This document shows positions 112 to 14,046 of a stretch of 64,000 nucleotides of DNA, piece by piece (the stretch's first letter is position 1; each line of letters starts with the position of its first letter). Below the pieces are notes generated by a model, which made no database searches, was not told where the DNA came from, and saw only the letters and a list, made by a program, of their open reading frames with translations. The stretch is from the sequence record OR896820.1, one strand, 5' to 3'. Made by a program: the position numbers and the translations under genes. Source of the DNA: Escherchia phage Stokescottia.

Positions 112-609
112 TCATAATTTTATTCTAAGTCTAGGAATTTCAGGCTCCTCTTGATGGACTTGGTAAATAACAGGGCTATTATTTACCAGAATATAGCTTA
201 TATAAGCTGGAACATAGGATAATACAAATGGATATGGAACTTTAGCTACATAGCATTGGTATTTTCCGTTATAAATTCTAGCTGAATGCAAAACTTTAGA
301 GGTGACAACATCATAGAACGTAGTTTTCTTCCAGTTAATAAGATTTCCATCAGAATCTATAAATTGGCTACGTTTTGACCCAACTAATTGAGACAACATT
401 GATATTCTACCTCTAATAGGATAGAGCTTATATGGTAATTCTTTCCGTTTCTCAAATAGGATAAGCCTACGTTGAGAAAACGTGCCAGGCAACTTCCTGT
501 TATCTAGCACATATTTATTATATCTTGTTGTAATTACGGAATAATCACCTTCTTGCTCAATTGATACAAACGCCCGTAAAGCATATACGGGCAATTTGAA
601 ATCAAGCAC
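112..609 (-). CDS. hypothetical protein
   Basis: 165-aa ORF co-oriented with and overlapping the 3' end of the polymerase gene by 8 nt. Confidence 0.45.
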   Translation of the reverse strand: MLDFKLPVYALRAFVSIEQEGDYSVITTRYNKYVLDNRKLPGTFSQRRLILFEKRKELPYKLYPIRGRISMLSQLVGSKRSQFIDSDGNLINWKKTTFYDVVTSKVLHSARIYNGKYQCYVAKVPYPFVLSYVPAYISYILVNNSPVIYQVHQEEPEIPRLRIKL

Positions 610-3169
610 CGAGAATCCTTCTCACGTTATCCAAATCTTTACATACAGCAATAAACTTATCATCCTTGTATTTGCTATGATCTGGATGCTCTTTATCCAT
701 TGCAGCTAGTTTCTTATACTCGAACTCTGCATCAAGTAATACACCCTTGACATAACGAGTATACTCATCATCATCAATACAAGCGATTGATGGGTGCTGT
801 TTCTTCATCTTACCACAAGAGTAGTCACGAGAACCTCCAGCTTCAGAATCTGAATCAATACCAATCGGACAGCCAGGAATACTGATACCACGGTCTTTCT
901 GAATATTACGAATCAGGATTTCATTGTATTGGTCGATCAAATCCTCACGAACAATAGCAACTACGGAGTCGTGAACCAGCATAACAATCTTCATCTCTTG
1001 TTCTAGGCCAAGAGAAATGATCTCATTATCCGCATCTACAGCCCCTAAAAGGAGACTATCAGAAGAAGCAGACTGAATGATTGCGTTAAATCCAGAACGG
1101 ATTTCTTCACCCTGAACACCACGGTCTTCGGAGTGAATATTATGCAGACGACGTTTACGACCAAAGTGACTATAGATAAATCCATGATTCTTGATCTGAT
1201 CGTGGCACTTATCAATCCAACGCTTAAGCTGCGGGAACTGACCGAAGTAAGTTTCAATGTACTCTTTAGCATCCGCAACAGTACATTCAACAAACGGTTC
1301 GCCTGTCTTAGCAGCCTGTTCCAGAAGAGCTTCGTTAACAGAATGAGCTACTTTAGCTGGGCCAGAACCATACAAAATACCGAAGGTGATTGCCTTAGCA
1401 GCCTGACGCAGAGCTGGGAATAACTTTTTAACATCACGAGGTTCGCATTGTAGCTTAAATACCATATGTGCGATGTTAGAGTGGAAGTCAGGGTATTTAT
1501 CAGGTTCATTTCTCATGTTGATAAATACCTGTTGCATATTTCTATCACCAGATAGAACAGCAGCATAATAAACTTCCGCAGTTGTTAAGTCCCATGCGAT
1601 TACACGATACCCGGGAGGAGCTACTACACAACCCTTGATAATAGATTCATCACGAGGTAGCTGTTGCAGGTTCAGTTTACCAGAAGAACTCAAACGACCA
1701 GAAGTAGTCATGTGTTCATGGAAGCCAGTACGAATGCAACCATCAGCATCAATGCTCAGAAGAATCTTCTCAATGTAAGTAGAGATCAGCTTGGTCAGCT
1801 TACGAATCTCTAGTAGGGTCTTAGCAATTGGATGCTGCGTAGCCAATTCGTTCAAGGCTTCTGCATCTGTAGAGTCTGCTCCAGTATCCGTCAATTTACC
1901 TGTTGGAGTTAAGCCAACATAATCAAATAGAAGAACACGTAGCTGCTTAACAGAGTTAGGATTAAATGCTTCATTCTGATCTTTCTCTAGCTGAACTACT
2001 TCTGGATAAGTATACAGCTTCTCACGAGCTTTATTCAGATTATGAGTTAACTGATACTGAGCTTCTTTCAAGCGATCAATAGAAATTGGTACACCACGAT
2101 CCTCAACACGCTGGAGAAATACACAACCAGGCATTAGAACATCATAATACAGACTGCAAAGTTTTTCATTCTTCTCAATTTTTGGTAAGAAGAAATTGTG
2201 CAAACGTAGGGTGGCATCGGTATCTTTTGCAGCGTAAGGCCACATAATATCAAACGGAATTAAATCATAGGTGAAATCTTCTTTCTTGATTTTATGTGCT
2301 TTGCAGTAATCATCCTTGAACTTATCTAGTTCAAAGTCATAGTCACCCATATCGGTATACTTCATTGCTAGAGATTTCAAGCCATGAGTACCACGACGTT
2401 CATCTAGAACATAATGCTGCAACATAGTATCATGGAGCCTACGTTCTTTATGTGCTTTATCAAAAGTAAGTCCCAGATGGTACTTATAAAAGTGCATATC
2501 AAACTTCAAGTTGTGAAAAACAATAGTGTGGTTTTCACTATCCAGGATTTTCTGGAGATAATATACTGCAACCTCTGTGAGACAATCAGAATCGATATAT
2601 ACACCCTGATACTCTTGGTGAGACATAGAAACACCAAGCAGATAACCATCTCGACAGTATAGTGCTGAGGTTTCGGAGTCAAATGCGACAGGTCCGATAA
2701 CCATATTATACACCATCTTGATATATTCTTCCGCCTCATCAGGGTCAGTAATAGGACGGTAATCACCAGCTTTTGCAATCTTCTCACGACCATTGATAAT
2801 ATCGTGGATATTCTCTACTGTTGCATCAAAAACTGGTTTCATTTCAGGTTTAAAGTGTAACTGGGCTGGGCTGATACTCGCAATCCAGTTAGCATATCCA
2901 TTATACTCTACACGTTTACCAGTATAGTCACCAATGCCTTTCTTACCTGCGAAGTACAGGAAAGGTTCAGCACCTACTAGTATAACAAAATCATAATCAT
3001 TCGGATCAAATGGGTTTTCTGGTGTTCCAATAGTAATATGCTTTTTAAGCAAACGACCAGATAACTTCTCGTTACACATATGGAATACATCAACTTCCTC
3101 GCCGTATAGCTGGAAATGTTTATCATAACGAGTGTTATTTAGAGCTTTATCAACTACTGCGATCTTCAA
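602..3169 (-). CDS. DNA polymerase, family A, with 3'-5' exonuclease domain
   Basis: 855 aa; exo motif VAFDSETSALY, motif B RQAAKAITFGILYGSG, motif C MLVHDSVV; N-terminus resembles T5 polymerase as I recall it. Confidence 0.92.
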   Translation of the reverse strand: MKIAVVDKALNNTRYDKHFQLYGEEVDVFHMCNEKLSGRLLKKHITIGTPENPFDPNDYDFVILVGAEPFLYFAGKKGIGDYTGKRVEYNGYANWIASISPAQLHFKPEMKPVFDATVENIHDIINGREKIAKAGDYRPITDPDEAEEYIKMVYNMVIGPVAFDSETSALYCRDGYLLGVSMSHQEYQGVYIDSDCLTEVAVYYLQKILDSENHTIVFHNLKFDMHFYKYHLGLTFDKAHKERRLHDTMLQHYVLDERRGTHGLKSLAMKYTDMGDYDFELDKFKDDYCKAHKIKKEDFTYDLIPFDIMWPYAAKDTDATLRLHNFFLPKIEKNEKLCSLYYDVLMPGCVFLQRVEDRGVPISIDRLKEAQYQLTHNLNKAREKLYTYPEVVQLEKDQNEAFNPNSVKQLRVLLFDYVGLTPTGKLTDTGADSTDAEALNELATQHPIAKTLLEIRKLTKLISTYIEKILLSIDADGCIRTGFHEHMTTSGRLSSSGKLNLQQLPRDESIIKGCVVAPPGYRVIAWDLTTAEVYYAAVLSGDRNMQQVFINMRNEPDKYPDFHSNIAHMVFKLQCEPRDVKKLFPALRQAAKAITFGILYGSGPAKVAHSVNEALLEQAAKTGEPFVECTVADAKEYIETYFGQFPQLKRWIDKCHDQIKNHGFIYSHFGRKRRLHNIHSEDRGVQGEEIRSGFNAIIQSASSDSLLLGAVDADNEIISLGLEQEMKIVMLVHDSVVAIVREDLIDQYNEILIRNIQKDRGISIPGCPIGIDSDSEAGGSRDYSCGKMKKQHPSIACIDDDEYTRYVKGVLLDAEFEYKKLAAMDKEHPDHSKYKDDKFIAVCKDLDNVRRILGA

Positions 3170-3231: not shown

Positions 3232-4122
3232 TTATACCAAATCTTTAAGCGATTCAGCAACTAAAATTTCAATACGTTTTGCTAACATATCAATTTCTTC
3301 TTTATTTAAGTCACCAGGGTCTTTACCTTCAGGCAGAAGAAAGTTAGCAACTACAGGTGTTAAACGCGTTTTTGTACGAATTAGCTTGGCCAACGCTTGT
3401 GCAGCTTTGTTACCAGAAGCATCATTATCTAGTAAGATAACAACAACTTTTACACCAGCAATAATATAAGGACTGAACTTATCTGCAATGTTATCCGAAG
3501 TAAACTGATGTGTACCAAAGCAGCAAGAAGCATAGTCTATACCATTATCCTCTAGGTTCAGCATATCAAAGATACCTTCAACTAGAATAAGAACTGGAGT
3601 ATTATATCGTACAGGGAAAATCGGTGGTGAAACTTGCTTTGGTTTTACTAAGTATTTAGGAGGGGCAGAACTGTTTATAGAACGACCCAAAAATAGGATA
3701 TTGCGTCCAACAGCATCTGTGATTGGGAATACAATTCTGCCTTCCCAGTCTGCTTGGTGTTGGAAAGCAAAATATTTCTTCAAGGTCTTAGAACTTATAC
3801 CTCGGAAATCACCTTCGAAAAGGTAAGCAGATTCAGGAATTGCAAGATTCGTAGATCCATTCCTAATCTCTGAAATCTTTTTACGTACCTGCGATAGTCT
3901 TGGGGACTGTCGGTACTGAGTCTCATTAAAATAATGGTAAATGCTCGGTATACCTTTACCGAAGCCACAACTCAAGCAGTGCATAATACCTGTTTCAGGA
4001 TCAATACGCAAACTTGGGTGTTTATCGTCATGATCTGGATTGAGACAACAGATGAGGATGTCCCCACCTGTGTCTTTATATTCAATGCCTTTCAGATCAA
4101 GTAGTTCTGTTATTCTACTCAT
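3232..4122 (-). CDS. DNA primase (zinc-binding N-terminus plus Toprim domain)
   Basis: 296 aa; N-terminal CxxH...CxxC zinc motif (CCLNPDHDD...HCLSCGFGKG); Toprim-like LVEGIFDMLNLED...LLDNDASG. Confidence 0.75.
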   Translation of the reverse strand: MSRITELLDLKGIEYKDTGGDILICCLNPDHDDKHPSLRIDPETGIMHCLSCGFGKGIPSIYHYFNETQYRQSPRLSQVRKKISEIRNGSTNLAIPESAYLFEGDFRGISSKTLKKYFAFQHQADWEGRIVFPITDAVGRNILFLGRSINSSAPPKYLVKPKQVSPPIFPVRYNTPVLILVEGIFDMLNLEDNGIDYASCCFGTHQFTSDNIADKFSPYIIAGVKVVVILLDNDASGNKAAQALAKLIRTKTRLTPVVANFLLPEGKDPGDLNKEEIDMLAKRIEILVAESLKDLV

Positions 4123-5642
4123 ATATCGCTGGCCTGTTCACCTGTTGAATTTTCAGCTTTGTCTTTCTTAGCACGTTTAGGTTGAGCCGGCTTATCCTTC
4201 TCAATAGGGATAATGAACTCAGCTTCCATTTGAGATATATCTTCCATTGCTAGGTTGGTAGTGTTATCCATCCGCAGGGTTTCCCAGTTCATTTTAGGCA
4301 TAAACTTCACGCTATCAGAAGAACGAGTCTTAACGAAGTCAAACATAATAGCACCTTGACCATTATCAGCTTTTGCAGCATTAAGATTAGCAGCCATGTC
4401 AGCGGAATCAAGAATCCCCTTTGACATACGTGTTCTACCATCTTGATCAATCTGGTAAGGAGCTACACCAGCCACATTATGTTTCTGGCAGATAGATTTG
4501 AAAGACGAGCTGACAACCATCTGTTCTTTCCAGTCATACATATCAATGGTTTTAGAGTCTGGAAGTCTGGTCTGGTTAATATAGTCCAGTAAAGCTACTG
4601 TAACTTTATCTCCGTATCTAGCAACTAATTTATTTAATTCTACGTCAACTGTTGTAATAGACAGCTCAGGGTCATAAACAATAATCATAGGAGTATGTAG
4701 CTCATACCCTTCTATTAGCTTACTCTCCATATCGTAGAAATCACTCATCTTAGCCATTGTGTACTGTTTAACGAAGCTATCGAAAAGCTCTTCACCACCA
4801 TTAAACATTCTAGCTCTAGTTCTGGCTAATCTCAATAGAGCTGCACCTTCTAGAGTATTATTACGCATTGCTAATGCTGATACACCAGCTAACATGGCTA
4901 GATTACGTCTAAATACTTCATGTTCTTTCATCTCAATTGAGAAGTATGGAGCAATATCCCCATTCAAATATTGCTGAACCTGTATGTTTGAACAGATAAT
5001 GGATTTACCAGTACCACGCCAACCACCAAGCAGTAACGTTTCTGTGCGAGCTAAACCAATTTGAGCGTCGAACTCATTACAAATACCAAGAGCGATTAAG
5101 TTCAGTTTGGTATCTTCTTCTCTCTGGAAAATACGCATGTTATCTGCGTTGAATACTTTTCCAGTATTCGTTACTTTCTCTTCTAATTTTAAGTGAAGGG
5201 AGGCAACTCGGTTGAGAATTTCTCCCTGATCCAGCATTGTTAAATCTTGAAGCACGTCTGTTTCTAGAAGCTTCAGGAATAAATCCTGTGTATATTCAGC
5301 CTCTAGGACTTCAAGTGCCTGTTCCATGCTCACTTCTGGAATTTGAGTGTTAGCTAAGACGACTAGAGCTTGAGAAAGGCGGGCGTTCCTATTAGCCTCA
5401 AGCATCAGTGCGTCAATGGACGGCATTGTGTTATATTTTTTATAATAATTCTGGACGGCTTGGTAAATTGAGGAGAAAGCGTCATTAAAATGATCTTTAT
5501 GCAGTTTTGAGAATGTTTCCAATGCTATTTGCTTCTGTTCAGAAGCTAGAAGCATCTTCAACACTACAGCTTGCACGTTAAACAAGGTCATTCTCCTTTG
5601 CACGCTTTCGTGCCTTCTAAATGCAAAAAGGGGAAGGAGCAT
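4119..5642 (-). CDS. replicative DNA helicase, DnaB-like
   Basis: 507 aa; Walker A GGWRGTGKS; 4-nt overlap with primase; start uncertain because a terminator-like hairpin overlaps the first codons. Confidence 0.7.
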   Translation of the reverse strand: MLLPLFAFRRHESVQRRMTLFNVQAVVLKMLLASEQKQIALETFSKLHKDHFNDAFSSIYQAVQNYYKKYNTMPSIDALMLEANRNARLSQALVVLANTQIPEVSMEQALEVLEAEYTQDLFLKLLETDVLQDLTMLDQGEILNRVASLHLKLEEKVTNTGKVFNADNMRIFQREEDTKLNLIALGICNEFDAQIGLARTETLLLGGWRGTGKSIICSNIQVQQYLNGDIAPYFSIEMKEHEVFRRNLAMLAGVSALAMRNNTLEGAALLRLARTRARMFNGGEELFDSFVKQYTMAKMSDFYDMESKLIEGYELHTPMIIVYDPELSITTVDVELNKLVARYGDKVTVALLDYINQTRLPDSKTIDMYDWKEQMVVSSSFKSICQKHNVAGVAPYQIDQDGRTRMSKGILDSADMAANLNAAKADNGQGAIMFDFVKTRSSDSVKFMPKMNWETLRMDNTTNLAMEDISQMEAEFIIPIEKDKPAQPKRAKKDKAENSTGEQASDI

Positions 5643-5657
5643 AGCCCCCTCCCCTTA
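5624..5657 (-). terminator. rho-independent terminator-like hairpin
   Basis: GC-rich inverted repeat GGGGAAGG...CCCTCCCC followed by a U-run on the minus strand, just 3' of 5674..6441. Confidence 0.5.
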
Positions 5658-5673
5658 GGTTTAATTTACCAGA

Positions 5674-6441
5674 TTATTCAGCAGCCGCAGCTTTTGCATC
5701 CAGTTTAGCACGCTTAGCGGCACCATCATAGTCCTTAGCAACCAGACCACGACGAGACAGCATAGATTTAACACCACGCTCAGACTTACCAGTTTTCTCA
5801 GCGATCTCAGCAACAGTCATGTTAACCAGATCTAGACCTTCTAACAGATCTTCACGAGTTTTAGCACTTGAAGTTTCCTGTACCGGCATAGCAGCAATAC
5901 GACCTTCACGAAGCAGGCTCAGAGCTTTACCACGGATCTGCTTAATATTGCGACCGAAGTGAGCAGCGATAGCTTCAATAGTAGCACCAGCAACAACCTG
6001 ATTAACAAAATCAGTTTCTTCATCCGGAGTGAAGGAACGAACAGCAGCAGCTTTTTCAGTTGGTTTAACAGAAGCGGTCATTTCCAGACTCAGAATCTTA
6101 CCTTGTACCTGCTTAGCACCGAACTGACCACCAGCTACAGCAGCAGCGATTTCAGCATAGGTATACTGACCAGCATGAGCATTCAGGAAATCAACCAGTT
6201 CAGCTTCCTGCTCAGGAGTCCACGGGGATTTCTGTACTTCGTTAGCTTTCTGTACTTCAAAACCTTCTTTACGCAGTTTAGAGCCAACAGAGCGAGCGGT
6301 AACGTCTTTGCCAGTTTCAGCGGCCAGTTCAGCAGCGATAGCAGCTACTTGTTCTTGAGAGATTACAGCAACACCCAGAGCAGTGGCTTTTGCTTTCAGA
6401 GACTCGGTTACACCTTCTACGTTCCAGTTCAGTTTAGACAT
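5674..6441 (-). CDS. putative DNA-binding protein with four tandem ~40-aa HTH-like repeats
   Basis: 255 aa, Ala-rich; recurring pattern ...EIAxxxGxxxxxVxxKxxSL... Confidence 0.45.
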   Translation of the reverse strand: MSKLNWNVEGVTESLKAKATALGVAVISQEQVAAIAAELAAETGKDVTARSVGSKLRKEGFEVQKANEVQKSPWTPEQEAELVDFLNAHAGQYTYAEIAAAVAGGQFGAKQVQGKILSLEMTASVKPTEKAAAVRSFTPDEETDFVNQVVAGATIEAIAAHFGRNIKQIRGKALSLLREGRIAAMPVQETSSAKTREDLLEGLDLVNMTVAEIAEKTGKSERGVKSMLSRRGLVAKDYDGAAKRAKLDAKAAAAE

Positions 6442-7204
6442 TATTATTTTTCTCCAATAGTTCTTTAATCGACAGGATTTCTATCCCATTCGTTTCGGCT
6501 TTCTTATAAGATGAGGAAGAACGTTTTGATTCATCCTCACAGATTAGGTATTTGACGTCTTTGGTAACGGATTTCTTAACCGTATATCCTAGACCTTCTA
6601 AATAGTTTGTTGCATCCGTTCGATTTGCAAAATCTTGCAAAGATCCGGTAATACATACCACGATTCCATTTGGCTGGGCAACTAAATCATCAGTAACGAC
6701 AGTTTTAGCTTTAGCACCAGTTGAGAATTTCCACGGTAGTTCGATAACATCCTTGCCTTGTGGGGAATTTAGCCAGGCTTTGTAGTTTTCTCCAGCCTTG
6801 CCGTCAGCCTTCACATCGTGGAAGCTAGTGCAATTTTGGGATAATTTCTTTGCTGCAACCTCTCCGATTAGAGGGATTCCTAAAGAACCGAGAACTGAAC
6901 CAAAGTCAATGTCTCCGCGAACTTTAGTATTTAATTCGCTAATTAACTTAGCTGCAACCTTGCTACCCACGGCTCTAACTAAATCTTCTTCGGTTAGGTA
7001 AAATAGTTCTGAAATCTTCGTCAGCTCCAGCTTCTCAATAGTTTTTGGGCCAAAGCCCTTTAACTTCATTTTTGTACAGAAGTTCTCAATTAACTTACTT
7101 GATTGCGCTGGACAGTTGGACTTATTCCTACAGAATAATTGTCCGTTGACAAGATCTAGCTTAGAACCACAAGAGGGACATTGTGTTGGAATTTCGATTT
7201 TCAT
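6434..7204 (-). CDS. ligB: NAD-dependent DNA ligase, C-terminal part (Zn finger, HhH, BRCT)
   Basis: CPSCGSKLDLVNGQLFCRN..C zinc finger and BRCT-like tail; ATG at 7204 preceded by ATAAATTGATAAGGAAG box. Confidence 0.75.
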   Translation of the reverse strand: MKIEIPTQCPSCGSKLDLVNGQLFCRNKSNCPAQSSKLIENFCTKMKLKGFGPKTIEKLELTKISELFYLTEEDLVRAVGSKVAAKLISELNTKVRGDIDFGSVLGSLGIPLIGEVAAKKLSQNCTSFHDVKADGKAGENYKAWLNSPQGKDVIELPWKFSTGAKAKTVVTDDLVAQPNGIVVCITGSLQDFANRTDATNYLEGLGYTVKKSVTKDVKYLICEDESKRSSSSYKKAETNGIEILSIKELLEKNNNV

Positions 7205-7234
7205 CAAATTTCTTCCTTATCAATTTATATAAAT

Positions 7235-7263
7235 ATTATAGCAAGTATTTAAGCATTTAGCAA
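7235..7263 (-). promoter_or_regulatory. early-type promoter between the two ligase halves
   Basis: On minus strand TTGCTA, 17-nt spacer, TATAAT, then ATTTATATAAATTGATAAGG box. Confidence 0.6.
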
Positions 7264-7406
7264 CTACAATTTTAACTAACTTTGCTTACCCTCGCCATAA
7301 CTTTCTATCCCTCAACTGAATGATAATAGTATATACCTAAGCGGCGAAAATGTCAATAACCACTTTATAATTCCGATATGGTAGATGGGTAGCAAAGGGT
7401 TATGTA

Positions 7407-8378
7407 TTAATCGTATACTCGCTCTACTATGCACGGGATTACACCACCAGCACGAATTACTCGAATCTGGCAACCGATCTCTAGATCAAGAGAGTTAATA
7501 TAATCAACGTTATTAAGAGTCGCTTTAACAATTGTAGCATCATCAATAATTACCGGTTCGAAATAACCAACTGGAGTTACTTTACCAGAAGCCCCTACCT
7601 GCCACTCAACTTTAGTAAGAGTTGTAATCTCGCCTTCTTCATCCTCTTTAATAGCGAATGCTCCACGAGGGAATTTATTAGTCCAGCCTTCTCGGAAGAA
7701 TTTGTTGTTGTCATTAATACGAACAACTTTACCGTCCGTCGGAATCCATTTAAAGAATGAACGCACATTAACAACTGTTAAGAAGTCTTCATTCTCTAGC
7801 CAAAGCATATCTTTTAAATATGCTTCTGTAATACCTACAGATTCAGCAGAACACTGGATACCATATGCAACGAAGATTAAACCACCTTCCCCGATACGTT
7901 GTACGAAATCATCGCTATCTTTGAGGTTAATAGCACCAGAGGCAAAGTTACGTTTATTCTCTACTTCTTTTGTAATTAGAACTTCACCAGTGATTTGAGT
8001 AGGTACTTTTTGGGAAATCTTTTTAGGGATGTTCAGCAATCTTACGTTGCTTGTGACATCATTCCCTAGAATACCGTTACCACGAGTTAGTGCTTGAACA
8101 AATTCTCCATTAATATATAACAGAGAAATCGCACAACCATCTAATTTATCAGTTTCTACCTGACCTAATGGGTTAAACGGAGGTTTATCTCCACGATTAT
8201 AATAAACTTTCTGTAAAGAATACATACGATACAGATGTGGAATATCACCCTTAGGCCCGATCTCTTCTTCTAACGGGAAGCGTTTTACCAGGCAATCATA
8301 CTCCTCATCAGAGATTAAAGACATGCCTTGATAATATGCTTCTTGACAGCGTTTAATAAATTCTTTTACATTAGTCAT
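7407..8378 (-). CDS. ligA: NAD-dependent DNA ligase, N-terminal adenylation/OB part
   Basis: 323 aa; active-site KxDG motif in TDKLDGCAISLLY; separate ORF from the Zn/BRCT half. Confidence 0.8.
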   Translation of the reverse strand: MTNVKEFIKRCQEAYYQGMSLISDEEYDCLVKRFPLEEEIGPKGDIPHLYRMYSLQKVYYNRGDKPPFNPLGQVETDKLDGCAISLLYINGEFVQALTRGNGILGNDVTSNVRLLNIPKKISQKVPTQITGEVLITKEVENKRNFASGAINLKDSDDFVQRIGEGGLIFVAYGIQCSAESVGITEAYLKDMLWLENEDFLTVVNVRSFFKWIPTDGKVVRINDNNKFFREGWTNKFPRGAFAIKEDEEGEITTLTKVEWQVGASGKVTPVGYFEPVIIDDATIVKATLNNVDYINSLDLEIGCQIRVIRAGGVIPCIVERVYD

Positions 8379-9430: not shown

Positions 9431-9841
9431 TTACTTAGTGATAGCTCGGATTGCTTCTGCCAGATGAGCGGCTGCTTTACCGGTCAGTTTGTCGATAATT
9501 GCATCATCCAGAAAATCTGGTGCTAAGCCAGCATCAGAAAATGCTGAACGAAGATCGGCATGAGCTTGGGCTTTGGAAGTACGAGAACCACCAGAAGCTT
9601 TTTCTCCAGTAGATGCGCTAGATTTAGAAGCAGAGCCAGCAGCTTTCTTGATATACAAACCTGCTTTAGTCAGCTTCATACGAAAACCGTTCGGAGTTAC
9701 ACCATTTTCCTGGGCAATTTCGCTAACAATTTCCATGCTAACACCCGGACGTTCATCCTCTGGGAATTGCTCCATACGAGCAACGTATTCGGAAGACATT
9801 TTTTCGAACAGTTCATCAGTCCACTGAGTTGGAGTAGTCAT
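9431..9841 (-). CDS. hypothetical protein
   Basis: 136-aa ORF, Ala/Ser-rich C-terminus. Confidence 0.4.
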   Translation of the reverse strand: MTTPTQWTDELFEKMSSEYVARMEQFPEDERPGVSMEIVSEIAQENGVTPNGFRMKLTKAGLYIKKAAGSASKSSASTGEKASGGSRTSKAQAHADLRSAFSDAGLAPDFLDDAIIDKLTGKAAAHLAEAIRAITK

Positions 9842-9944: not shown

Positions 9945-10220
9945 TTACTCCACCAGGCCAACAGCGAGCATATCATCAATGCTGGCAATCTCCCAATCGT
10001 CGGCAATAGCTTCGCATACTGTTAACGTAACAACCTCACTATAGGGATAATTACCAGCTACCCAGGTATGTTGGGTAACTACATCCAGATCAGTATCCAA
10101 AGTTAATAATACTAAACCGTTATTATCGTTATTCCAACTTTTACGATATACGGTTTTTGTTTCACCATCTTTGAGCAAATCTGTTAGCTTACTCACGGCG
10201 TTTTCCTTTTTCTTTATCAA
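9945..10220 (-). CDS. hypothetical protein
   Basis: 91-aa ORF. Confidence 0.35.
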   Translation of the reverse strand: MIKKKENAVSKLTDLLKDGETKTVYRKSWNNDNNGLVLLTLDTDLDVVTQHTWVAGNYPYSEVVTLTVCEAIADDWEIASIDDMLAVGLVE

Positions 10221-10893
10221 GTTTCAGGGCAGCCTTAACAGCTTCGTTAATCAACGTAATAATTTCTTCACGAGTCCACTTGTATCCTAGAGATTTTACG
10301 TCTACCCCTAGTTTTTCCAGATGTTTAACAGAAGCCAGCTCGTAATTCATATAATGGACGTTCTGTTGTTTGCCTTCTGATAGAAGCCATACACGGTAGC
10401 AACCAACAGGATTATCCATTGCTTTTTTGATTTCACCGATACACTGGTATCCAGGGACCCAAACAAGCTCACCAACTGCAAATTCTTCTGCTACAGCATC
10501 ATCAGGAATAATTGGAGGATTCAATGGATCTACAATATCGTTCAAACGAAGTAGAGCACCATATCGTTCCAGAACGGATTTAACCATTGCTACAGAGCGG
10601 TAATTACGATCGGCAATTTCTTCGAAAGAATCACCAGATAAATACTGTTCAATAACGTTGGCTAACTCGATGCCTTCAATTAGTGTGCCACGTTTCTTTT
10701 TCTTCATTTCGGCAACTTGAATTTGGCGATCTTGCCACTCTTCAATCATCCTTTCCATAGTTGGATTGGATGATACGCCGAGCATTTCACATGCTGCTTT
10801 CTTAGTACCACCGTTCTCCAGATGCTCTATAACCTTTTTAAAGACTTCATCCGGGATTTCATGGATATGTTTCTTTCTACGAGAACCAGCCAT
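10189..10893 (-). CDS. hypothetical protein with N-terminal HTH-like motif
   Basis: 234 aa; GTKKAACEMLGVSSNPTMERMIEEW resembles a helix-turn-helix. Confidence 0.4.
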   Translation of the reverse strand: MAGSRRKKHIHEIPDEVFKKVIEHLENGGTKKAACEMLGVSSNPTMERMIEEWQDRQIQVAEMKKKKRGTLIEGIELANVIEQYLSGDSFEEIADRNYRSVAMVKSVLERYGALLRLNDIVDPLNPPIIPDDAVAEEFAVGELVWVPGYQCIGEIKKAMDNPVGCYRVWLLSEGKQQNVHYMNYELASVKHLEKLGVDVKSLGYKWTREEIITLINEAVKAALKLDKEKGKRRE

Positions 10894-10961: not shown

Positions 10962-11204
10962 TTACGATTCCTTGAGCAAAGAAGCAAGTTCAGCATAGAC
11001 TTTATCTAACTCAAAGCCGATGCGAAGAGACACGTTTGTTTTCCGTTGTTTAAGTAACCACTCGGATATGTTAGGGATGCCAGCTAATCTATGCGGTACC
11101 ACCCTACATAGCTTTTCCGAAGTGTCGTAAACAGGAACTTTACGTTCTTTTACTGGGAACTTCCTTGTTTCCCATTTTTTATTCTTCACTGTCATTTCTA
11201 GCAC
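10962..11204 (-). CDS. hypothetical protein
   Basis: 80-aa ORF. Confidence 0.3.
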   Translation of the reverse strand: MLEMTVKNKKWETRKFPVKERKVPVYDTSEKLCRVVPHRLAGIPNISEWLLKQRKTNVSLRIGFELDKVYAELASLLKES

Positions 11205-14046
11205 CTAGCTCTGCCATTGCTTCATCATGCATATGTTTCTCCTCATCAGTCATAAACTTATACGGGATTGGCATACACTCGATTTTACAATAGGTTCTGT
11301 ACCAGTCTACAATATTTTCAGTGTTCATATCCTTACCAATACCCATCATACCAAGATACATTCTGGCGTATTTTGGGTTAGCACTCTGGCCTGTTTTAAG
11401 GAAGAAATCTTTCTTCTTACCTTTCAGAGCTTCTATGAATGGTTTGATAGTGACATTTGAACACTTCTTAATATCTTCCCAGAACATCTCGTGCATTTTA
11501 TGGAAGAATGCCGCTCGATCATTCGGTTTATCCTTGATATACTGTTCAACATGCTCAACTGTTACATCTTTAATAGACTCAAGATGATAATAGCGAACAA
11601 GAAGTAGTTTAGCTTCATACGCATCTGCATGGCGTGGAGCACAATAATCAGGAGTTGAATACAAAATAGCTTTGATTCGCTCTTCCGTATACTCTTTTCC
11701 TGCACCTTCGATAGTTCCCCAGCTTTCACTGAAAATATCAATAGTTGCACCCTGATCAAGCAAGTAATAACGTAAAGTACTAGTATAATTCCTAGACTCC
11801 AGCTCCCTGCGACGTGCGTATAATTGCTGTGCTAACTCCAGCCAACCTTCATCAATGTTATATTGCTCAGAACCTGCGGAGAACCCACTCGTAGATTTAT
11901 CAATAAAATAATAAATGTTCTGAGCGCCACGGTCGCGCCTGATTGCTTGGAAACGCATGTTTGGCGCTTGGTTTGAGGTTCTAGTAATAACGAATACGTT
12001 ATCAAAGTAGTTAAAGTCAACACCACTTGTTACGGATGGACTACATAATAAGCAATCAATTTGTTGATCAATTAGCTCATTAGTTGTGTAATCCAGAATA
12101 CGTCTAATATCCACATCAGACGTAGAGTTTGAGTGGATTTCCTTAACTAACGCACCCGTATTACGACGCAGAGCCATACCCTTCTCATTCAGTTCATCCG
12201 GCCCACAGTCAGATACTAGGATAGATTTCTCCCCCATCTCTAGAGAAGTCTGAAGTGCAACCCAAATACTGGATTCATCCGGGAACTCATAAGCATGAGC
12301 TTTTGATAGCATTTTACGGTGATGATTATAAAATGCAACCGGTTTATCAAACTCAATCAAAGAACCATATGCTTCAATGGTTTCTGCACTAATATCCCCA
12401 TCAGATAATATAATGATTTTTGCAGTTGCAAGAATATCCCGAAGAACCTGAATACATTCACGACGTTGTTTAACAACCGGGGCGAATAATAGGTCATTCA
12501 TTACAGCATCACATTCATCGATAAAGATTGCATCAATTTGACCAATAAAACTCTTGAACTTATGCAAAGAATGTATAGTTGTGGACATACGGTCAATAGC
12601 GCCACGCTTAAAATTAAGCATATCTACAGACTTATCATATTGTCCTGCACTAAATTTCTTAGCATTTGAAGATACCAGTGCTCGAGTATTGGTAATTGCT
12701 AAGAAATTACCTTTAATAACTCCTGAATCTAACCAACGCACAACCGCTGTAGTTTTACCTGTACCTAGACTTGCTTTTACAAAAGTCATATAACCTTCTG
12801 GTGGTACAGTATTTAATTTCAAGAAGTTATCAGTTTCTAGAGAATTAGTTTCTAGCTTTTTAAGTGGAATACCTTTTAAAACATCAGGTATATCACGTTT
12901 AGAATTATTAACAAACGCTTTCAGAGCCTGTTTACGACCGTTATTAAAGTAATCTTGAATATTACGACTATTATCTTTAGTTGCAATATATTCTGATAAG
13001 GCTGGGCGGATTTCTTTTTCTAGCCATGCAAAATCAACACCATCCTCTAAAGCTCTGTGATAGAGTTTAGGAATAATACGTAGATACACTCCATCCTCAG
13101 CTTCTTCTAGTTCGCTGATAGTTTCCTCTACTTTATCAGAGGCAGCTTTTTTACCTTTAATTTGGTCGAGTAAAGAGTAAAACTCCTCCTTAAACTCACC
13201 TCTAGTTGTTTCATAGTCAACCAGATTATTAGGTAAATTTACTTTAGAACCCTTAACAAATACCAGACGTGAAGCACCCTCCGCTTTAAACGGATCTACT
13301 ATACCATCGGTAAATAACGGATCTGCAAAATAATGGAGCTGTACGGAAGAGTAATAAGCTAAGTCGGCAATATCAAAGCCATACTTTTGTCTACTACTTT
13401 CGTTGATAGATGTAAATAAGAATTTGATTTGACCCTGAGTTACTTTAACATTAGATTCTAGTATTAAGTGCATTCGGATACCTGGTTTTAGCCCAGCCGA
13501 AGACGATGCATGAGCGATAAACCCTGCATCAAGAGGAAACATATCCTCACTAATACTATTTAACATTCTAATAATATGTCTAGCCATGCCAACAAGATCA
13601 AACTTGTTACAACCACCTGTATCTACAATACCATCCACATCCATTGCAATTATATGGCTTGGGTTAGATACATTAAAGTTGCCCTTCTTACGCCGCACAT
13701 TATTTTTAGGTGCAAGACATCGACCTCGTACCGCAACGATATGAGGGTCAGACGTTAAACGTCTCATAAGAGGAAGCATTTCTACTAGAGTTTGCGGATC
13801 AACTTCATCAATTACATCAAACTTGAAGGGCATTGAAGCTGGTTTACCTTCAGGATGCTTTGAGGAGAATCTTTTAGCAAAAAGATAGTCTTCTGCTTTA
13901 ACTTCTCGCCAATTGCCTGTGGCTAAATCGCGATGAAATCCTGCATGACCTTGTAGGATTGAGAACACAACAATACTCCTGTGTTGGAAATGAAATAAGT
14001 TTTCTTTAGGACTATTCAGAAAGAATAGAACAACTGTTACTGTCAA
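11179..14046 (-). CDS. P-loop NTPase, helicase-like replication protein
   Basis: Walker A SLGTGKTTAV, Walker B IFIDECD, arginine-finger-like QAIRRDRG; ORF opens on TTG at 14046, first ATG is at 13833, so the true start is uncertain. Confidence 0.55.
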   Translation of the reverse strand: MTVTVVLFFLNSPKENLFHFQHRSIVVFSILQGHAGFHRDLATGNWREVKAEDYLFAKRFSSKHPEGKPASMPFKFDVIDEVDPQTLVEMLPLMRRLTSDPHIVAVRGRCLAPKNNVRRKKGNFNVSNPSHIIAMDVDGIVDTGGCNKFDLVGMARHIIRMLNSISEDMFPLDAGFIAHASSSAGLKPGIRMHLILESNVKVTQGQIKFLFTSINESSRQKYGFDIADLAYYSSVQLHYFADPLFTDGIVDPFKAEGASRLVFVKGSKVNLPNNLVDYETTRGEFKEEFYSLLDQIKGKKAASDKVEETISELEEAEDGVYLRIIPKLYHRALEDGVDFAWLEKEIRPALSEYIATKDNSRNIQDYFNNGRKQALKAFVNNSKRDIPDVLKGIPLKKLETNSLETDNFLKLNTVPPEGYMTFVKASLGTGKTTAVVRWLDSGVIKGNFLAITNTRALVSSNAKKFSAGQYDKSVDMLNFKRGAIDRMSTTIHSLHKFKSFIGQIDAIFIDECDAVMNDLLFAPVVKQRRECIQVLRDILATAKIIILSDGDISAETIEAYGSLIEFDKPVAFYNHHRKMLSKAHAYEFPDESSIWVALQTSLEMGEKSILVSDCGPDELNEKGMALRRNTGALVKEIHSNSTSDVDIRRILDYTTNELIDQQIDCLLCSPSVTSGVDFNYFDNVFVITRTSNQAPNMRFQAIRRDRGAQNIYYFIDKSTSGFSAGSEQYNIDEGWLELAQQLYARRRELESRNYTSTLRYYLLDQGATIDIFSESWGTIEGAGKEYTEERIKAILYSTPDYCAPRHADAYEAKLLLVRYYHLESIKDVTVEHVEQYIKDKPNDRAAFFHKMHEMFWEDIKKCSNVTIKPFIEALKGKKKDFFLKTGQSANPKYARMYLGMMGIGKDMNTENIVDWYRTYCKIECMPIPYKFMTDEEKHMHDEAMAELGARNDSEE

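What the first reader, a model, noticed from the sequence alone, without database searches (positions are those of the whole stretch)
5674..6441. Protein built from four tandem HTH-like repeats
The product shows four roughly 40-aa repeats, each ending in an HTH-like element followed by a basic stretch, suggesting a multivalent DNA-binding protein. Its position between the helicase and ligase genes fits a replication or transcription accessory factor.
Basis: partly seen in the sequence, partly recalled or inferred. Interest (0 to 1): 0.4.

Follow-up and report, generated by a model that had tools for sequence, protein, structure and literature searches.

The report
Phage T5 D5 DNA-binding protein

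Summary
The ORF at 5674..6441 (minus strand, 255 aa) is real. It is 254/255 identical to phage T5 D5 (T5.118). T5 RefSeq annotates D5 as a DNA-binding protein required for DNA replication and late transcription.

The four-repeat observation holds:
- A self-comparison of a 52-sequence family profile recovers all three in-register shifts: E 1.6e-9, 6e-4 and 4e-3.
- AlphaFold2 (pLDDT 93) gives three three-helix HTH domains plus a diverged fourth HTH and a C-terminal helix.
- Helix 3 of every unit is net positive and the most conserved element.

The repeat period is 59-68 aa. The folded cores are about 40-48 aa, and the fourth unit is degenerate.

Gene order ligA-ligB-D5-DnaB-primase-PolA is kept in a marine relative at 53% identity. 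So is the layout of strong promoter, ligB-D5, then terminator-like hairpin. This fits the reported high abundance of D5.

Best reading: an abundant, monomeric, multivalent duplex-DNA binder that coats phage DNA and so affects replication and the early-to-late switch. How it does this is still inferred.

The protein is already known. The explicit four-module description, and 5-unit variants elsewhere, are minor additions. Interest is low.

The parts
5674..6441 (-). D5 gene (255 aa plus stop), orthologue of phage T5 D5 / T5.118
   Evidence: ORF list. 254/255 identity to T5 YP_006946.1. PHROG 323 'transcriptional regulator, D5-like', E 1.5e-71 over residues 1-253. 505 phage records cover at least 80% of the 1.3-kb query around it.
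6238..6426 (-). HTH unit 1 (residues 6-68): helices 11-22, 29-43, 49-58. Helix 3 is ARSVGSKLRK (nt 6268..6297).
   Evidence: AF2 model. The profile matches units 2, 3 and 4. The family profile matches a designed engrailed homeodomain over this unit, E 0.0035. Helix 3 top-residue frequency is 0.86 against 0.63 overall.
6049..6237 (-). HTH unit 2 (residues 69-131): helices 76-88, 95-101, 109-118. Helix 3 is AKQVQGKILS (nt 6088..6117).
   Evidence: AF2 models. Unit 2 vs unit 3: z = 8.0 and hhalign E 2e-9. Weak Myb_DNA-binding hit at residues 71-100. Q113, G114, K115 and L117 are invariant.
5872..6048 (-). HTH unit 3 (residues 132-190): helices 139-150, 155-162, 166-178. Helix 3 is IKQIRGKALSLLR (nt 5908..5946).
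   Evidence: AF2 models. HTH_23 hit at residues 151-184, E 1.6e-4. G171, K172 and L174 are invariant. The unit 3 profile also detects the units of longer repeat arrays in other proteins.
5728..5871 (-). HTH unit 4 (residues 191-238), diverged: a conserved extended segment, then helices 210-217 and 221-231. Helix 3 is ERGVKSMLSRR (nt 5749..5781).
   Evidence: Sigma70_r4_2 at residues 204-230, 28.7 bits against a cutoff of 25.7, matched in 46 of 52 family members. hhalign to unit 1 E 2e-4 and to unit 3 E 1e-4. No first helix is called by DSSP.
5677..5727 (-). Conserved C-terminal tail (residues 239-255, DYDGAAKRAKLD...), predicted as a helix at 240-254
   Evidence: AF2. G240 is invariant; D237, A241 and K246 are at least 90% conserved. 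The role is unknown; a contact for cooperative binding or for a partner protein is only an inference.
5628..5656 (-). Terminator-like hairpin 18 nt after the D5 stop (13-bp stem, 8 G-C pairs, T-rich tail). The ATG listed as the D6 helicase start lies in its loop.
   Evidence: Scan and sequence. A hairpin lies at the same place after D5 in a marine relative with 53% protein identity (L002 6748-6771).
7235..7356 (-). Two sigma-70-type promoter-like sites upstream of ligB: 7356..7328 (TTGACA-17-TATACT, 11/12) and 7263..7235 (TTGCTA-17-TATAAT with TG)
   Evidence: Scan. They correspond in position to the T5 promoters P-K 28b and 28a annotated before ligB. The marine relative has a 12/12 consensus promoter before its ligB.
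6434..7207 (-). ligB (NAD-dependent ligase subunit B), co-transcribed with D5. Its stop overlaps the D5 start (aATGtcTAA).
   Evidence: ORF list and Pfam BRCT/HHH hits. Overlap sequence. T5 annotation.
9638..9742 (-). One D5-type HTH unit inside the neighbouring D3 gene (D3 residues 34-68; the D3 ORF is 9431..9841)
   Evidence: hhalign of D3 against the unit 1 profile: E 2.2e-5, prob 76%. Against the unit 4 profile: E 2.5e-4. It is the best non-self hit of the unit 1 HMM among 385 window ORFs, E 0.0014.

Best explanation
The gene encodes the phage T5 D5 protein.

Architecture: D5 is a single chain of four tethered helix-turn-helix modules. Three are homeodomain/Myb-like three-helix domains. 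The fourth is a diverged HTH resembling sigma-70 region 4. Conserved linkers join them, and a conserved C-terminal helix ends the chain.

Expression: D5 is made in large amounts from a strong early promoter - ligB - D5 - terminator unit inside the replication gene cluster.

Proposed mechanism (inferred, not shown here):
- Each module puts its conserved, positively charged third helix into or along a major groove.
- One monomer therefore grips several successive grooves of duplex DNA with high avidity and little sequence preference.
- Many monomers coat the phage DNA.
- This coating shapes which DNA ends, nicks and promoters stay accessible. That would explain why loss of D5 affects DNA replication, shut-off of early genes and the start of late transcription.
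- The same DNA-gripping surface is what a type IX retron uses to sense T5 infection.
For: Identity:
- 254/255 identical to T5 D5; PHROG 323, E 1.5e-71.

Known function:
- T5 RefSeq note: DNA-binding, required for replication and late transcription, involved in shut-off.
- Title of McCorquodale 1979.
- D5 scored 'Fit' in the T5 CRISPRi-ART screen.

Four units:
- Repeat statistics.
- AF2 pLDDT is 93.2 but pTM only 0.52, meaning confident domains with an uncertain mutual arrangement, as expected for beads on a string.

All four units appear functional:
- Helix 3 is the most conserved element in each unit: 0.86, 0.86, 0.73 and 0.82 against 0.63 overall.
- Helix 3 is net positive in each unit.
- The four D5 changes reported in a retron escaper fall one in each unit: G53D, W74*, V149I, G232D. 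Three of them are at positions at least 90% conserved.

Binding and stoichiometry:
- Purified D5 is seen as a 26 kDa species, and an AlphaFold3 model places its HTH on a DNA stem-loop.
- D5 is very abundant in T5 and BF23 lysates but absent from purified BF23 virions.
- The strong promoter - ligB - D5 - terminator layout is kept in a relative at 53% identity.

Context:
- ligA-ligB-D5-DnaB-primase-PolA order is conserved.

Fold class:
- Pfam hits across the family are all HTH families: Sigma70_r4_2 46/52, HTH_23 28/52, Myb 13/52.
- Foldseek lists are dominated by tandem HTH DNA binders: DUX4 double homeodomain on DNA, Timeless DBD, POU, Myb, Tc3.

From my own memory, not checked here: 1979-1983 biochemistry (Rice et al., J Biol Chem 1979; Fujimura and Roop, J Virol 1983) described D5 as an abundant protein of about 29 kDa. 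It bound duplex DNA cooperatively and modulated T5 DNA polymerase on nicked DNA.
Against: - No DNA-binding data were produced here, and no D5-DNA structure exists.
- The protein as a whole is not basic (net charge 0, pI 6.8), unlike many DNA-coating proteins.
- No structural match reaches E <= 0.001 in the PDB, so the fold class rests on weak but consistent hits.
- The strong conservation of the recognition helices would also fit recognition of a specific conserved site.
- One reported escaper carries a stop at W74. This is hard to square with an indispensable coating protein.
Confidence: 0.7

Rival explanations
1. D5 is a sequence-specific late-gene activator. One or more units read a defined site near late promoters. 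The sigma-region-4-like fourth unit, or the C-terminal helix, contacts host RNA polymerase and substitutes for -35 recognition.
For: - Unit 4 passes the Pfam Sigma70_r4_2 threshold, and 46 of 52 relatives match that family at E <= 0.01.
- D5 is annotated as required for late transcription.
- The mechanism of the T5 class switch is stated to be unknown (abstract of PMC7472727).
- The recognition helices are very strongly conserved.
- Some relatives carry D5-type units after an N-terminal part with a GerE/Sigma70_r4-type HTH.
Against: - Very high abundance is unusual for a site-specific activator.
- There is no sigma region 2 and no other RNA-polymerase-binding domain.
- The region-4 match covers only a generic HTH of 27 residues.
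- D5 also affects replication.
- D5 also engages an unrelated retron DNA stem-loop in an AlphaFold3 model.
- No binding motif was sought or found here.
Confidence: 0.15
2. D5 is a dedicated replisome accessory, for example a helicase loader or an origin- or nick-binding factor. It would act through contacts with the neighbouring D6 helicase, the ligase or the polymerase. The effect on late transcription would be secondary to the failure of replication.
For: - The position between ligB and the DnaB-like helicase is conserved across distant relatives, and D5 is translationally coupled to ligB.
- D5 is annotated as required for DNA replication.
- D5 is classed under 'replication' and scored 'Fit' in the CRISPRi-ART table.
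- D3 carries one D5-type unit and is also 'Fit'.
Against: - No domain other than HTH units is present, so no loader-type ATPase or known helicase-binding module.
- A terminator-like hairpin separates D5 from the helicase gene. This argues for very different expression levels rather than a 1:1 complex.
- High abundance in lysates.
Confidence: 0.12
3. The apparent repeats are a by-product of an alanine-rich, helix-prone composition, and only one true HTH exists.
For: - Units 1-2 and 1-3 are not significant in the single sequence.
- Only one Pfam hit passes its threshold.
- The protein is Ala-rich.
Against: - Shuffling keeps the composition and still gives z = 8 for units 2-3.
- Profile comparisons recover all three shifts in register.
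- AF2 gives three separate three-helix domains plus a fourth HTH at high confidence.
- Natural relatives have an extra copy of unit 2, or extra unit 3-type copies.
Confidence: 0.02

Closest known systems
Bacteriophage T5 D5 protein (T5.118, YP_006946.1; PHROG 323)
   Same: 254/255 residues identical and the same length. Same neighbours (ligB upstream with overlapping stop/start, D6 DnaB-like helicase downstream).
   Different: One substitution (A25 here, D25 in T5). This phage lacks the homing endonuclease hegJ that T5 carries two genes downstream.
Tandem three-helix HTH DNA binders: Myb R2R3 / CDC5, DUX4 double homeodomain, POU, paired/Tc3 bipartite domains, Timeless DNA-binding domain
   Same: Several small three-helix HTH modules tethered in one chain, each with a recognition helix. 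They are the best Foldseek hits for units 2-3 (5zfy E 0.057, prob 0.80; 6taz; 9pfo; 5gmk_c; TRF1 Myb TMt 0.64-0.68). There are weak sequence hits to Myb, HTH_23 and an engrailed variant. The D5 profile detects eukaryote-type Myb arrays at E about 1e-14 to 1e-16.
   Different: No hit reaches a family threshold or E <= 0.001 for this sequence. D5 has four units, not two or three, and lacks the three regularly spaced Trp of Myb repeats. Those proteins read specific sites, whereas D5 is reported as a general duplex binder.
Sigma-70 region 4 (Pfam PF08281 Sigma70_r4_2)
   Same: Unit 4 (residues 204-230) matches the HTH of region 4 above the Pfam threshold.
   Different: No region 2 or region 3 and no core-binding part. 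The match is 27 residues of a generic HTH. D5 is not a sigma factor.
GcrA-type N-terminal HTH (Pfam PF07750)
   Same: The pattern W/F-T-x-E-E ... IA..LG ... [RK]GK..RLG/L resembles the GcrA DNA-binding domain (pattern recalled from memory). 4 of 52 D5 relatives hit GcrA at E < 0.01.
   Different: Below threshold. GcrA has a single HTH plus a sigma-70-binding C-terminal domain that D5 lacks.
Winged-helix protein of retron-Kva2 (type IX retron)
   Same: The authors report that an HTH of D5 superposes on the retron's WH protein (RMSD 1.3 A). In an AlphaFold3 model it engages the same msDNA stem-loop, and D5 triggers the retron.
   Different: Mimicry of a DNA-binding surface, not homology. My AF2 model shows no beta-hairpin wing.

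Membership tests
T5 D5 family (PHROG 323, 'transcriptional regulator, D5-like') | Full-length sequence match to the family profile and to the T5 type protein | tested here: met
   PHROG 323 E 1.5e-71, residues 1-253. 254/255 identity to T5 D5.
T5 D5 family (PHROG 323, 'transcriptional regulator, D5-like') | Position in the early replication cluster between ligase subunit B and the DnaB-like helicase D6 | tested here: met
   Window ORFs against the T5 annotation. Same order in marine relatives L002-L004.
T5 D5 family (PHROG 323, 'transcriptional regulator, D5-like') | Binding to double-stranded DNA; requirement for replication and late transcription | not testable with these tools
   Taken from the T5 RefSeq note, the title of McCorquodale 1979 and the CRISPRi-ART 'Fit' call. 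At 99.6% identity the properties are assumed to carry over.
Sigma-70 family sigma factor | Region 4 HTH | tested here: met
   PF08281 28.7 bits against a cutoff of 25.7, residues 204-230.
Sigma-70 family sigma factor | Region 2 (core binding and -10 recognition) | tested here: not met
   No Sigma70_r2 hit at E <= 1. The rest of the protein is three more HTH units. D5 is not a sigma factor.
Myb/SANT (PF00249) | Profile match above the gathering score; three spaced aromatic residues per repeat | tested here: not met
   17.6 bits against a cutoff of 24.4, residues 71-100 only. One conserved W/F begins units 1-3 (W6, W74, F137), not three per repeat. 13 of 52 relatives hit at E < 0.01, so the resemblance is real but membership is not shown.
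Homeodomain-like HTH_23 (PF13384) | Profile match above the gathering score | tested here: inconclusive
   21.8 bits against 24.6 for this sequence, but 28 of 52 relatives match at E < 0.01, best 2.9e-7. Three-helix fold predicted. Foldseek best E 0.057.
Winged helix | Beta-hairpin wing after the recognition helix | tested here: not met
   DSSP on the AF2 model calls no strand of 3 or more residues, only isolated bridges. This rests on a prediction only.
GcrA (PF07750) | Profile match; C-terminal sigma-70-binding domain | tested here: not met
   No GcrA hit for this sequence at E <= 1. 4 of 52 relatives reach only E 0.003 at best. No such C-terminal domain is present.

The most novel reading that the evidence does not exclude
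D5 could be the missing early-to-late switch of T5. It would be a phage 'chromatin' protein whose four tethered modules coat replicated DNA and occlude early promoters. Its sigma-region-4-like fourth module and conserved C-terminal helix would dock on host RNA polymerase and replace -35 recognition at late promoters. Replication, shut-off and late transcription would then be coupled through one abundant protein.
Probability: 0.1. Interest if true: 0.6.

Novelty: already known. Interest (0 to 1): 0.2.

Why it matters
D5 is one of the few T5 early proteins tied genetically to both replication and the still unexplained early-to-late transcription switch. It has also just been reported as the trigger sensed by a type IX retron.

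Three points give a concrete dissection plan: mutate one recognition helix at a time.
- The protein is four separable HTH modules.
- All four recognition helices are under strong constraint.
- The reported escaper changes fall one per module.

None of this changes the classification. This is a correct re-discovery of a known protein, and the window adds only one conservative substitution.

Tried and rejected
- Classical D5 papers: I tried to read McCorquodale 1979 and Chinnadurai and McCorquodale 1974. They are not held, so the classical biochemistry is cited from memory and from titles or annotation only.
- DRT4 paper on a 'phage-encoded DNA binding protein': its trigger is T5 ORF55, unrelated to D5.
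- Whole-model Foldseek against the PDB: nothing better than E 0.076.
- Foldseek on a units 2-3 sub-model: no better than E 0.057. The fold class is therefore a consistent resemblance, not a significant match.
- PDB sequence search with the family profile: only a designed engrailed homeodomain at E 0.0035 and the Timeless DBD at E 0.12.
- Sigma factor: rejected because there is no region 2.
- Compositional artefact: rejected by the shuffle and profile tests.
- Opposite-strand ORF 5959..6468(+), 169 aa: treated as a shadow of the D5 frame.
- Relatives with an N-terminal extension (P0247, P0257, P0262): these raised the idea of a sigma fusion. Pfam shows only a GerE/region-4-type HTH there and no region 2, so I do not read them as sigma factors.
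- DNA-binding motif in late promoter regions: I did not search for one.

Full report
**What the window is.** The window is a T5-like phage (Tequintavirus). The 1.3 kb around the finding is 99.2% identical to Salmonella phage NR01. It matches 513 phage records, mostly at 95-99%. The ORF list and Pfam give this gene order on the minus strand:
- DNA polymerase, 602..3169
- primase, 3232..4122
- DnaB-like helicase, 4119..5642
- the ORF in question, 5674..6441
- ligase subunit B, 6434..7207
- ligase subunit A, 7407..8378

This is the early replication cluster of phage T5 as annotated in NC_005859.

**Identity.** The 255-aa product is 254/255 identical to T5 D5 (T5.118, YP_006946.1). The only difference is A25 here against D25 in T5. 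It matches PHROG 323 'transcriptional regulator, D5-like' over its full length, E 1.5e-71. The T5 record describes D5 as 'DNA-binding protein; required for DNA replication and late transcription; also is involved in shutoff of expression of ...'. [quoted passage not shown] That paper and two related look-ups are not held in the library. Details of the old biochemistry are therefore from my memory only: about 29 kDa, abundant, cooperative binding to duplex DNA, and effects on T5 polymerase at nicks.

**Checking the observation in the single sequence.** I cut the protein at the apparent unit boundaries and compared the units by Smith-Waterman against 2000 shuffles.
- Unit 2 vs unit 3: score 54 against 21 +/- 4, z = 8.0, 0/2000 shuffles reach it.
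- Units 1-4 z = 3.3; units 2-4 z = 2.6; units 3-4 z = 2.55.
- Units 1-2 and 1-3 are not above chance.

**Checking the observation with family profiles.** A search of 5.8 billion proteins gave 715 relatives. I aligned 52 of them, spanning 50-80% identity (A1). Splitting A1 into four sub-alignments and comparing profiles (hhalign) gave:
- R2-R3 E 2e-9 (probability 96%)
- R3-R4 1e-4
- R1-R4 2e-4
- R1-R3 6e-4
- R1-R2 1e-3
- R2-R4 0.011

A whole-profile self-comparison with alternative alignments recovers every possible shift:
- residues 2-170 on 70-225 (one unit, 153 columns, E 1.6e-9)
- 136-217 on 5-102 (two units, E 4e-3)
- 194-235 on 16-63 (three units, E 6e-4)

The four-fold repeat is real.

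**Structure.** AlphaFold2 on A1 gives mean pLDDT 93.2 and pTM 0.52. The domains are confident but their mutual arrangement is not. The elements are:
- helices 11-22, 29-43, 49-58
- helices 76-88, 95-101, 109-118
- helices 139-150, 155-162, 166-178
- an extended segment, then helices 210-217 and 221-231
- a C-terminal helix 240-254

So there are three canonical three-helix HTH domains, a diverged fourth HTH with no called first helix, and a tail. The repeat period is 59-68 aa, the folded cores are 40-48 aa, and linkers join them.

**The 'basic stretch'.** This is helix 3 and its extension. Its net charge is +3, +2, +5 and +4 in the four units, while the protein as a whole is neutral (pI 6.8). 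Helix 3 is also the most conserved element of every unit. Mean top-residue frequency is 0.86, 0.86, 0.73 and 0.82 against 0.63 overall. Invariant residues cluster there: R50, K55, L56, R57; Q113, G114, K115, L117; G171, K172, L174; G223, L228, R231. All four recognition helices look to be under selection.

**Fold class.**
- Pfam has no dedicated family. For this sequence only Sigma70_r4_2 on unit 4 passes its threshold (28.7 vs 25.7 bits).
- Weaker Pfam hits are HTH_23 on unit 3, Myb on unit 2 and HTH_33 on unit 1.
- Across the 52 relatives the counts are Sigma70_r4_2 46, HTH_23 28, HTH_32 15, Myb 13 and GcrA 4.
- The family profile hits a designed engrailed homeodomain at E 0.0035 over unit 1. 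It hits the Timeless DNA-binding domain at E 0.12 over units 2-3.
- Foldseek of the whole model against the PDB finds nothing below E 0.076.
- A separate model of units 2-3 (pLDDT 85.8) gives its best hits to the DUX4 double homeodomain on DNA (E 0.057, prob 0.80). Next come the Timeless DBD, POU, CDC5 Myb repeats and the TRF1 Myb domain.

The resemblance to tethered homeodomain/Myb-like modules is consistent but not statistically strong. I therefore do not file D5 in any of those families. Against predicted viral structures, the best match is a Vibrio phage D5 (E 4e-27), followed by other multi-HTH phage proteins.

**Family breadth and modularity.** A filter-free profile search of 1.84 billion cluster representatives finds 535 clusters at E <= 1e-3 and 76 at E <= 1e-30. 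Full-length members are almost all 233-262 aa. Variants show that the units behave as modules:
- P0122 (309 aa) reads unit 1-2-2-3-4.
- P0186, P0194 and P0228 (283-292 aa) carry five units, with unit 3-type copies repeated.
- P0247, P0257 and P0262 put one unit 2 and one to four unit 3 copies after an N-terminal part holding a GerE/region-4-type HTH.
- The unit 3 profile also picks up the repeats of eukaryote-type Myb arrays and of an HTH_7/HTH_23 array.

**Expression context.**
- The D5 start overlaps the ligB stop (aATGtcTAA) and follows a GGAG.
- Upstream of ligB lie two good sigma-70-type sites. They are 7356..7328 (11/12) and 7263..7235 (10/12 with TG). T5 has its P-K 28b and 28a promoters annotated at that position.
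- Eighteen nucleotides after the D5 stop is a 13-bp G+C-rich hairpin followed by a T-rich tail, at 5656..5628.
- A marine relative at 53% protein identity keeps the same gene order: PC4-like, ligA, ligB, D5, DnaB, primase, PolA.
- The same relative keeps the same layout: a 12/12 consensus promoter before ligB, and a hairpin right after D5.

This fits the published finding that D5 is among the most intense bands in T5 and BF23 lysates yet absent from purified BF23 virions. It is also recovered as a major protein in phiR2-01 virion preparations.

**Recent functional literature.**
- A genome-wide knock-down screen of T5 scored D5 and D3 as 'Fit' (important) and D2 as 'Semi-Fit'.
- A July 2026 preprint reports T5 D5 as the trigger of the type IX retron-Kva2.
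  - D5 is toxic on its own and runs as a 26 kDa species in mass photometry.
  - In an AlphaFold3 model its HTH engages the msDNA stem-loop, mimicking the retron's winged-helix protein.
  - D5 remodels the retron complex.
- That preprint does not mention a repeat architecture.
- Its escaper T5.1 carries G53D, W74*, V149I and G232D. In my unit boundaries that is one change in each of the four units. G53, W74 and G232 are at least 90% conserved.

I read this as support that every unit matters for the DNA-gripping surface. Whether the four changes sit in one genome is not stated.

**How it most likely works.** Shown or taken from the record: the identity, the four HTH units, the conserved cationic recognition helices, the abundance, the monomeric state, and the genetic requirement for replication and late transcription. 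Inferred: one monomer places up to four recognition helices in successive major grooves. This gives avid duplex binding that depends little on sequence, and many monomers coat phage DNA. The coat would then affect which nicks, ends and promoters are usable. That links replication, early shut-off and late transcription, and offers a surface that a retron can sense.

Rivals:
- A sequence-specific late activator that uses the region-4-like unit to contact RNA polymerase (about 0.15).
- A dedicated replisome accessory (about 0.12).
- A compositional artefact (refuted).

**Verdict.** The protein is the already known T5 D5. The explicit four-module description, the one-change-per-unit pattern of the escaper, the 5-unit variants and the conserved promoter-ligB-D5-terminator unit are small additions. 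Interest is low.

Noticed in passing
window 5628..5656 (-) and 5640..5642: The terminator-like hairpin after D5 holds in its loop the ATG that the ORF list and T5 RefSeq use as the start of the D6 DnaB-like helicase. A marine homologue aligns only from window residue 42 and is 24 residues shorter at its N-terminus. The true D6 start may therefore be the internal Met18 (MTLFNVQ...).
   Followed up: partly
window 9431..9841 (-), D3; residues 34-68 = 9638..9742: The neighbouring 136-aa D3 'DNA binding protein' carries one D5-type HTH unit. hhalign to the unit 1 profile gives E 2.2e-5, and it is the best non-self hit among 385 window ORFs. D3 was also 'Fit' in the T5 knock-down screen and was mutated in a retron escaper.
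   Followed up: partly
window 10189..10893 (-) and 11179..14046 (-): The 234-aa ORF is labelled 'D2 helicase' in T5 RefSeq and in PHROG 3611, but it has only HTH-type Pfam hits and no Walker motif. The biochemically characterised D2 bipolar helicase is a 928-aa Walker A/B protein (PMC3632103). That matches the large ORF annotated 'replication origin binding' (T5.108). The gene name and product appear to have been attached to the wrong ORF and then propagated.
   Followed up: partly
literature on T5 D5 (window 5674..6441): A retron-Kva2 escaper is reported with a premature stop at D5 W74. Yet D5 is 'Fit' in CRISPRi-ART, and classical D5 mutants are conditional lethals (the latter from memory). 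It is not stated whether the stop lies in a clonal viable genome, is suppressed, or leaves a functional unit 1 fragment.
   Followed up: no
window 4119..4122 and about 11200, compared with L001 (T5) 11615-12148 and 4319-4837: This phage lacks the two HNH homing endonuclease genes that T5 carries here. These are hegJ, between D6 and the primase, and hegI, after the large helicase gene. In the window the helicase and primase ORFs overlap directly.
   Followed up: no
window 6434..8378 (-): The NAD-dependent DNA ligase is split into two ORFs, as in T5. One holds the adenylation and OB domains and the other holds Zn-finger, HHH and BRCT. Promoter-like sites lie in the 200-bp gap between them. The split is kept in the marine relative L002.
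   Followed up: no
P0247, P0257, P0262 (from the representative search, not in the window): These are proteins of 355-569 aa in which D5-type units (one unit 2 plus one to four unit 3 copies) follow an N-terminal region of about 220 aa. That region holds a GerE/Sigma70_r4-type HTH. Their origin and genomic context are unknown.
   Followed up: partly
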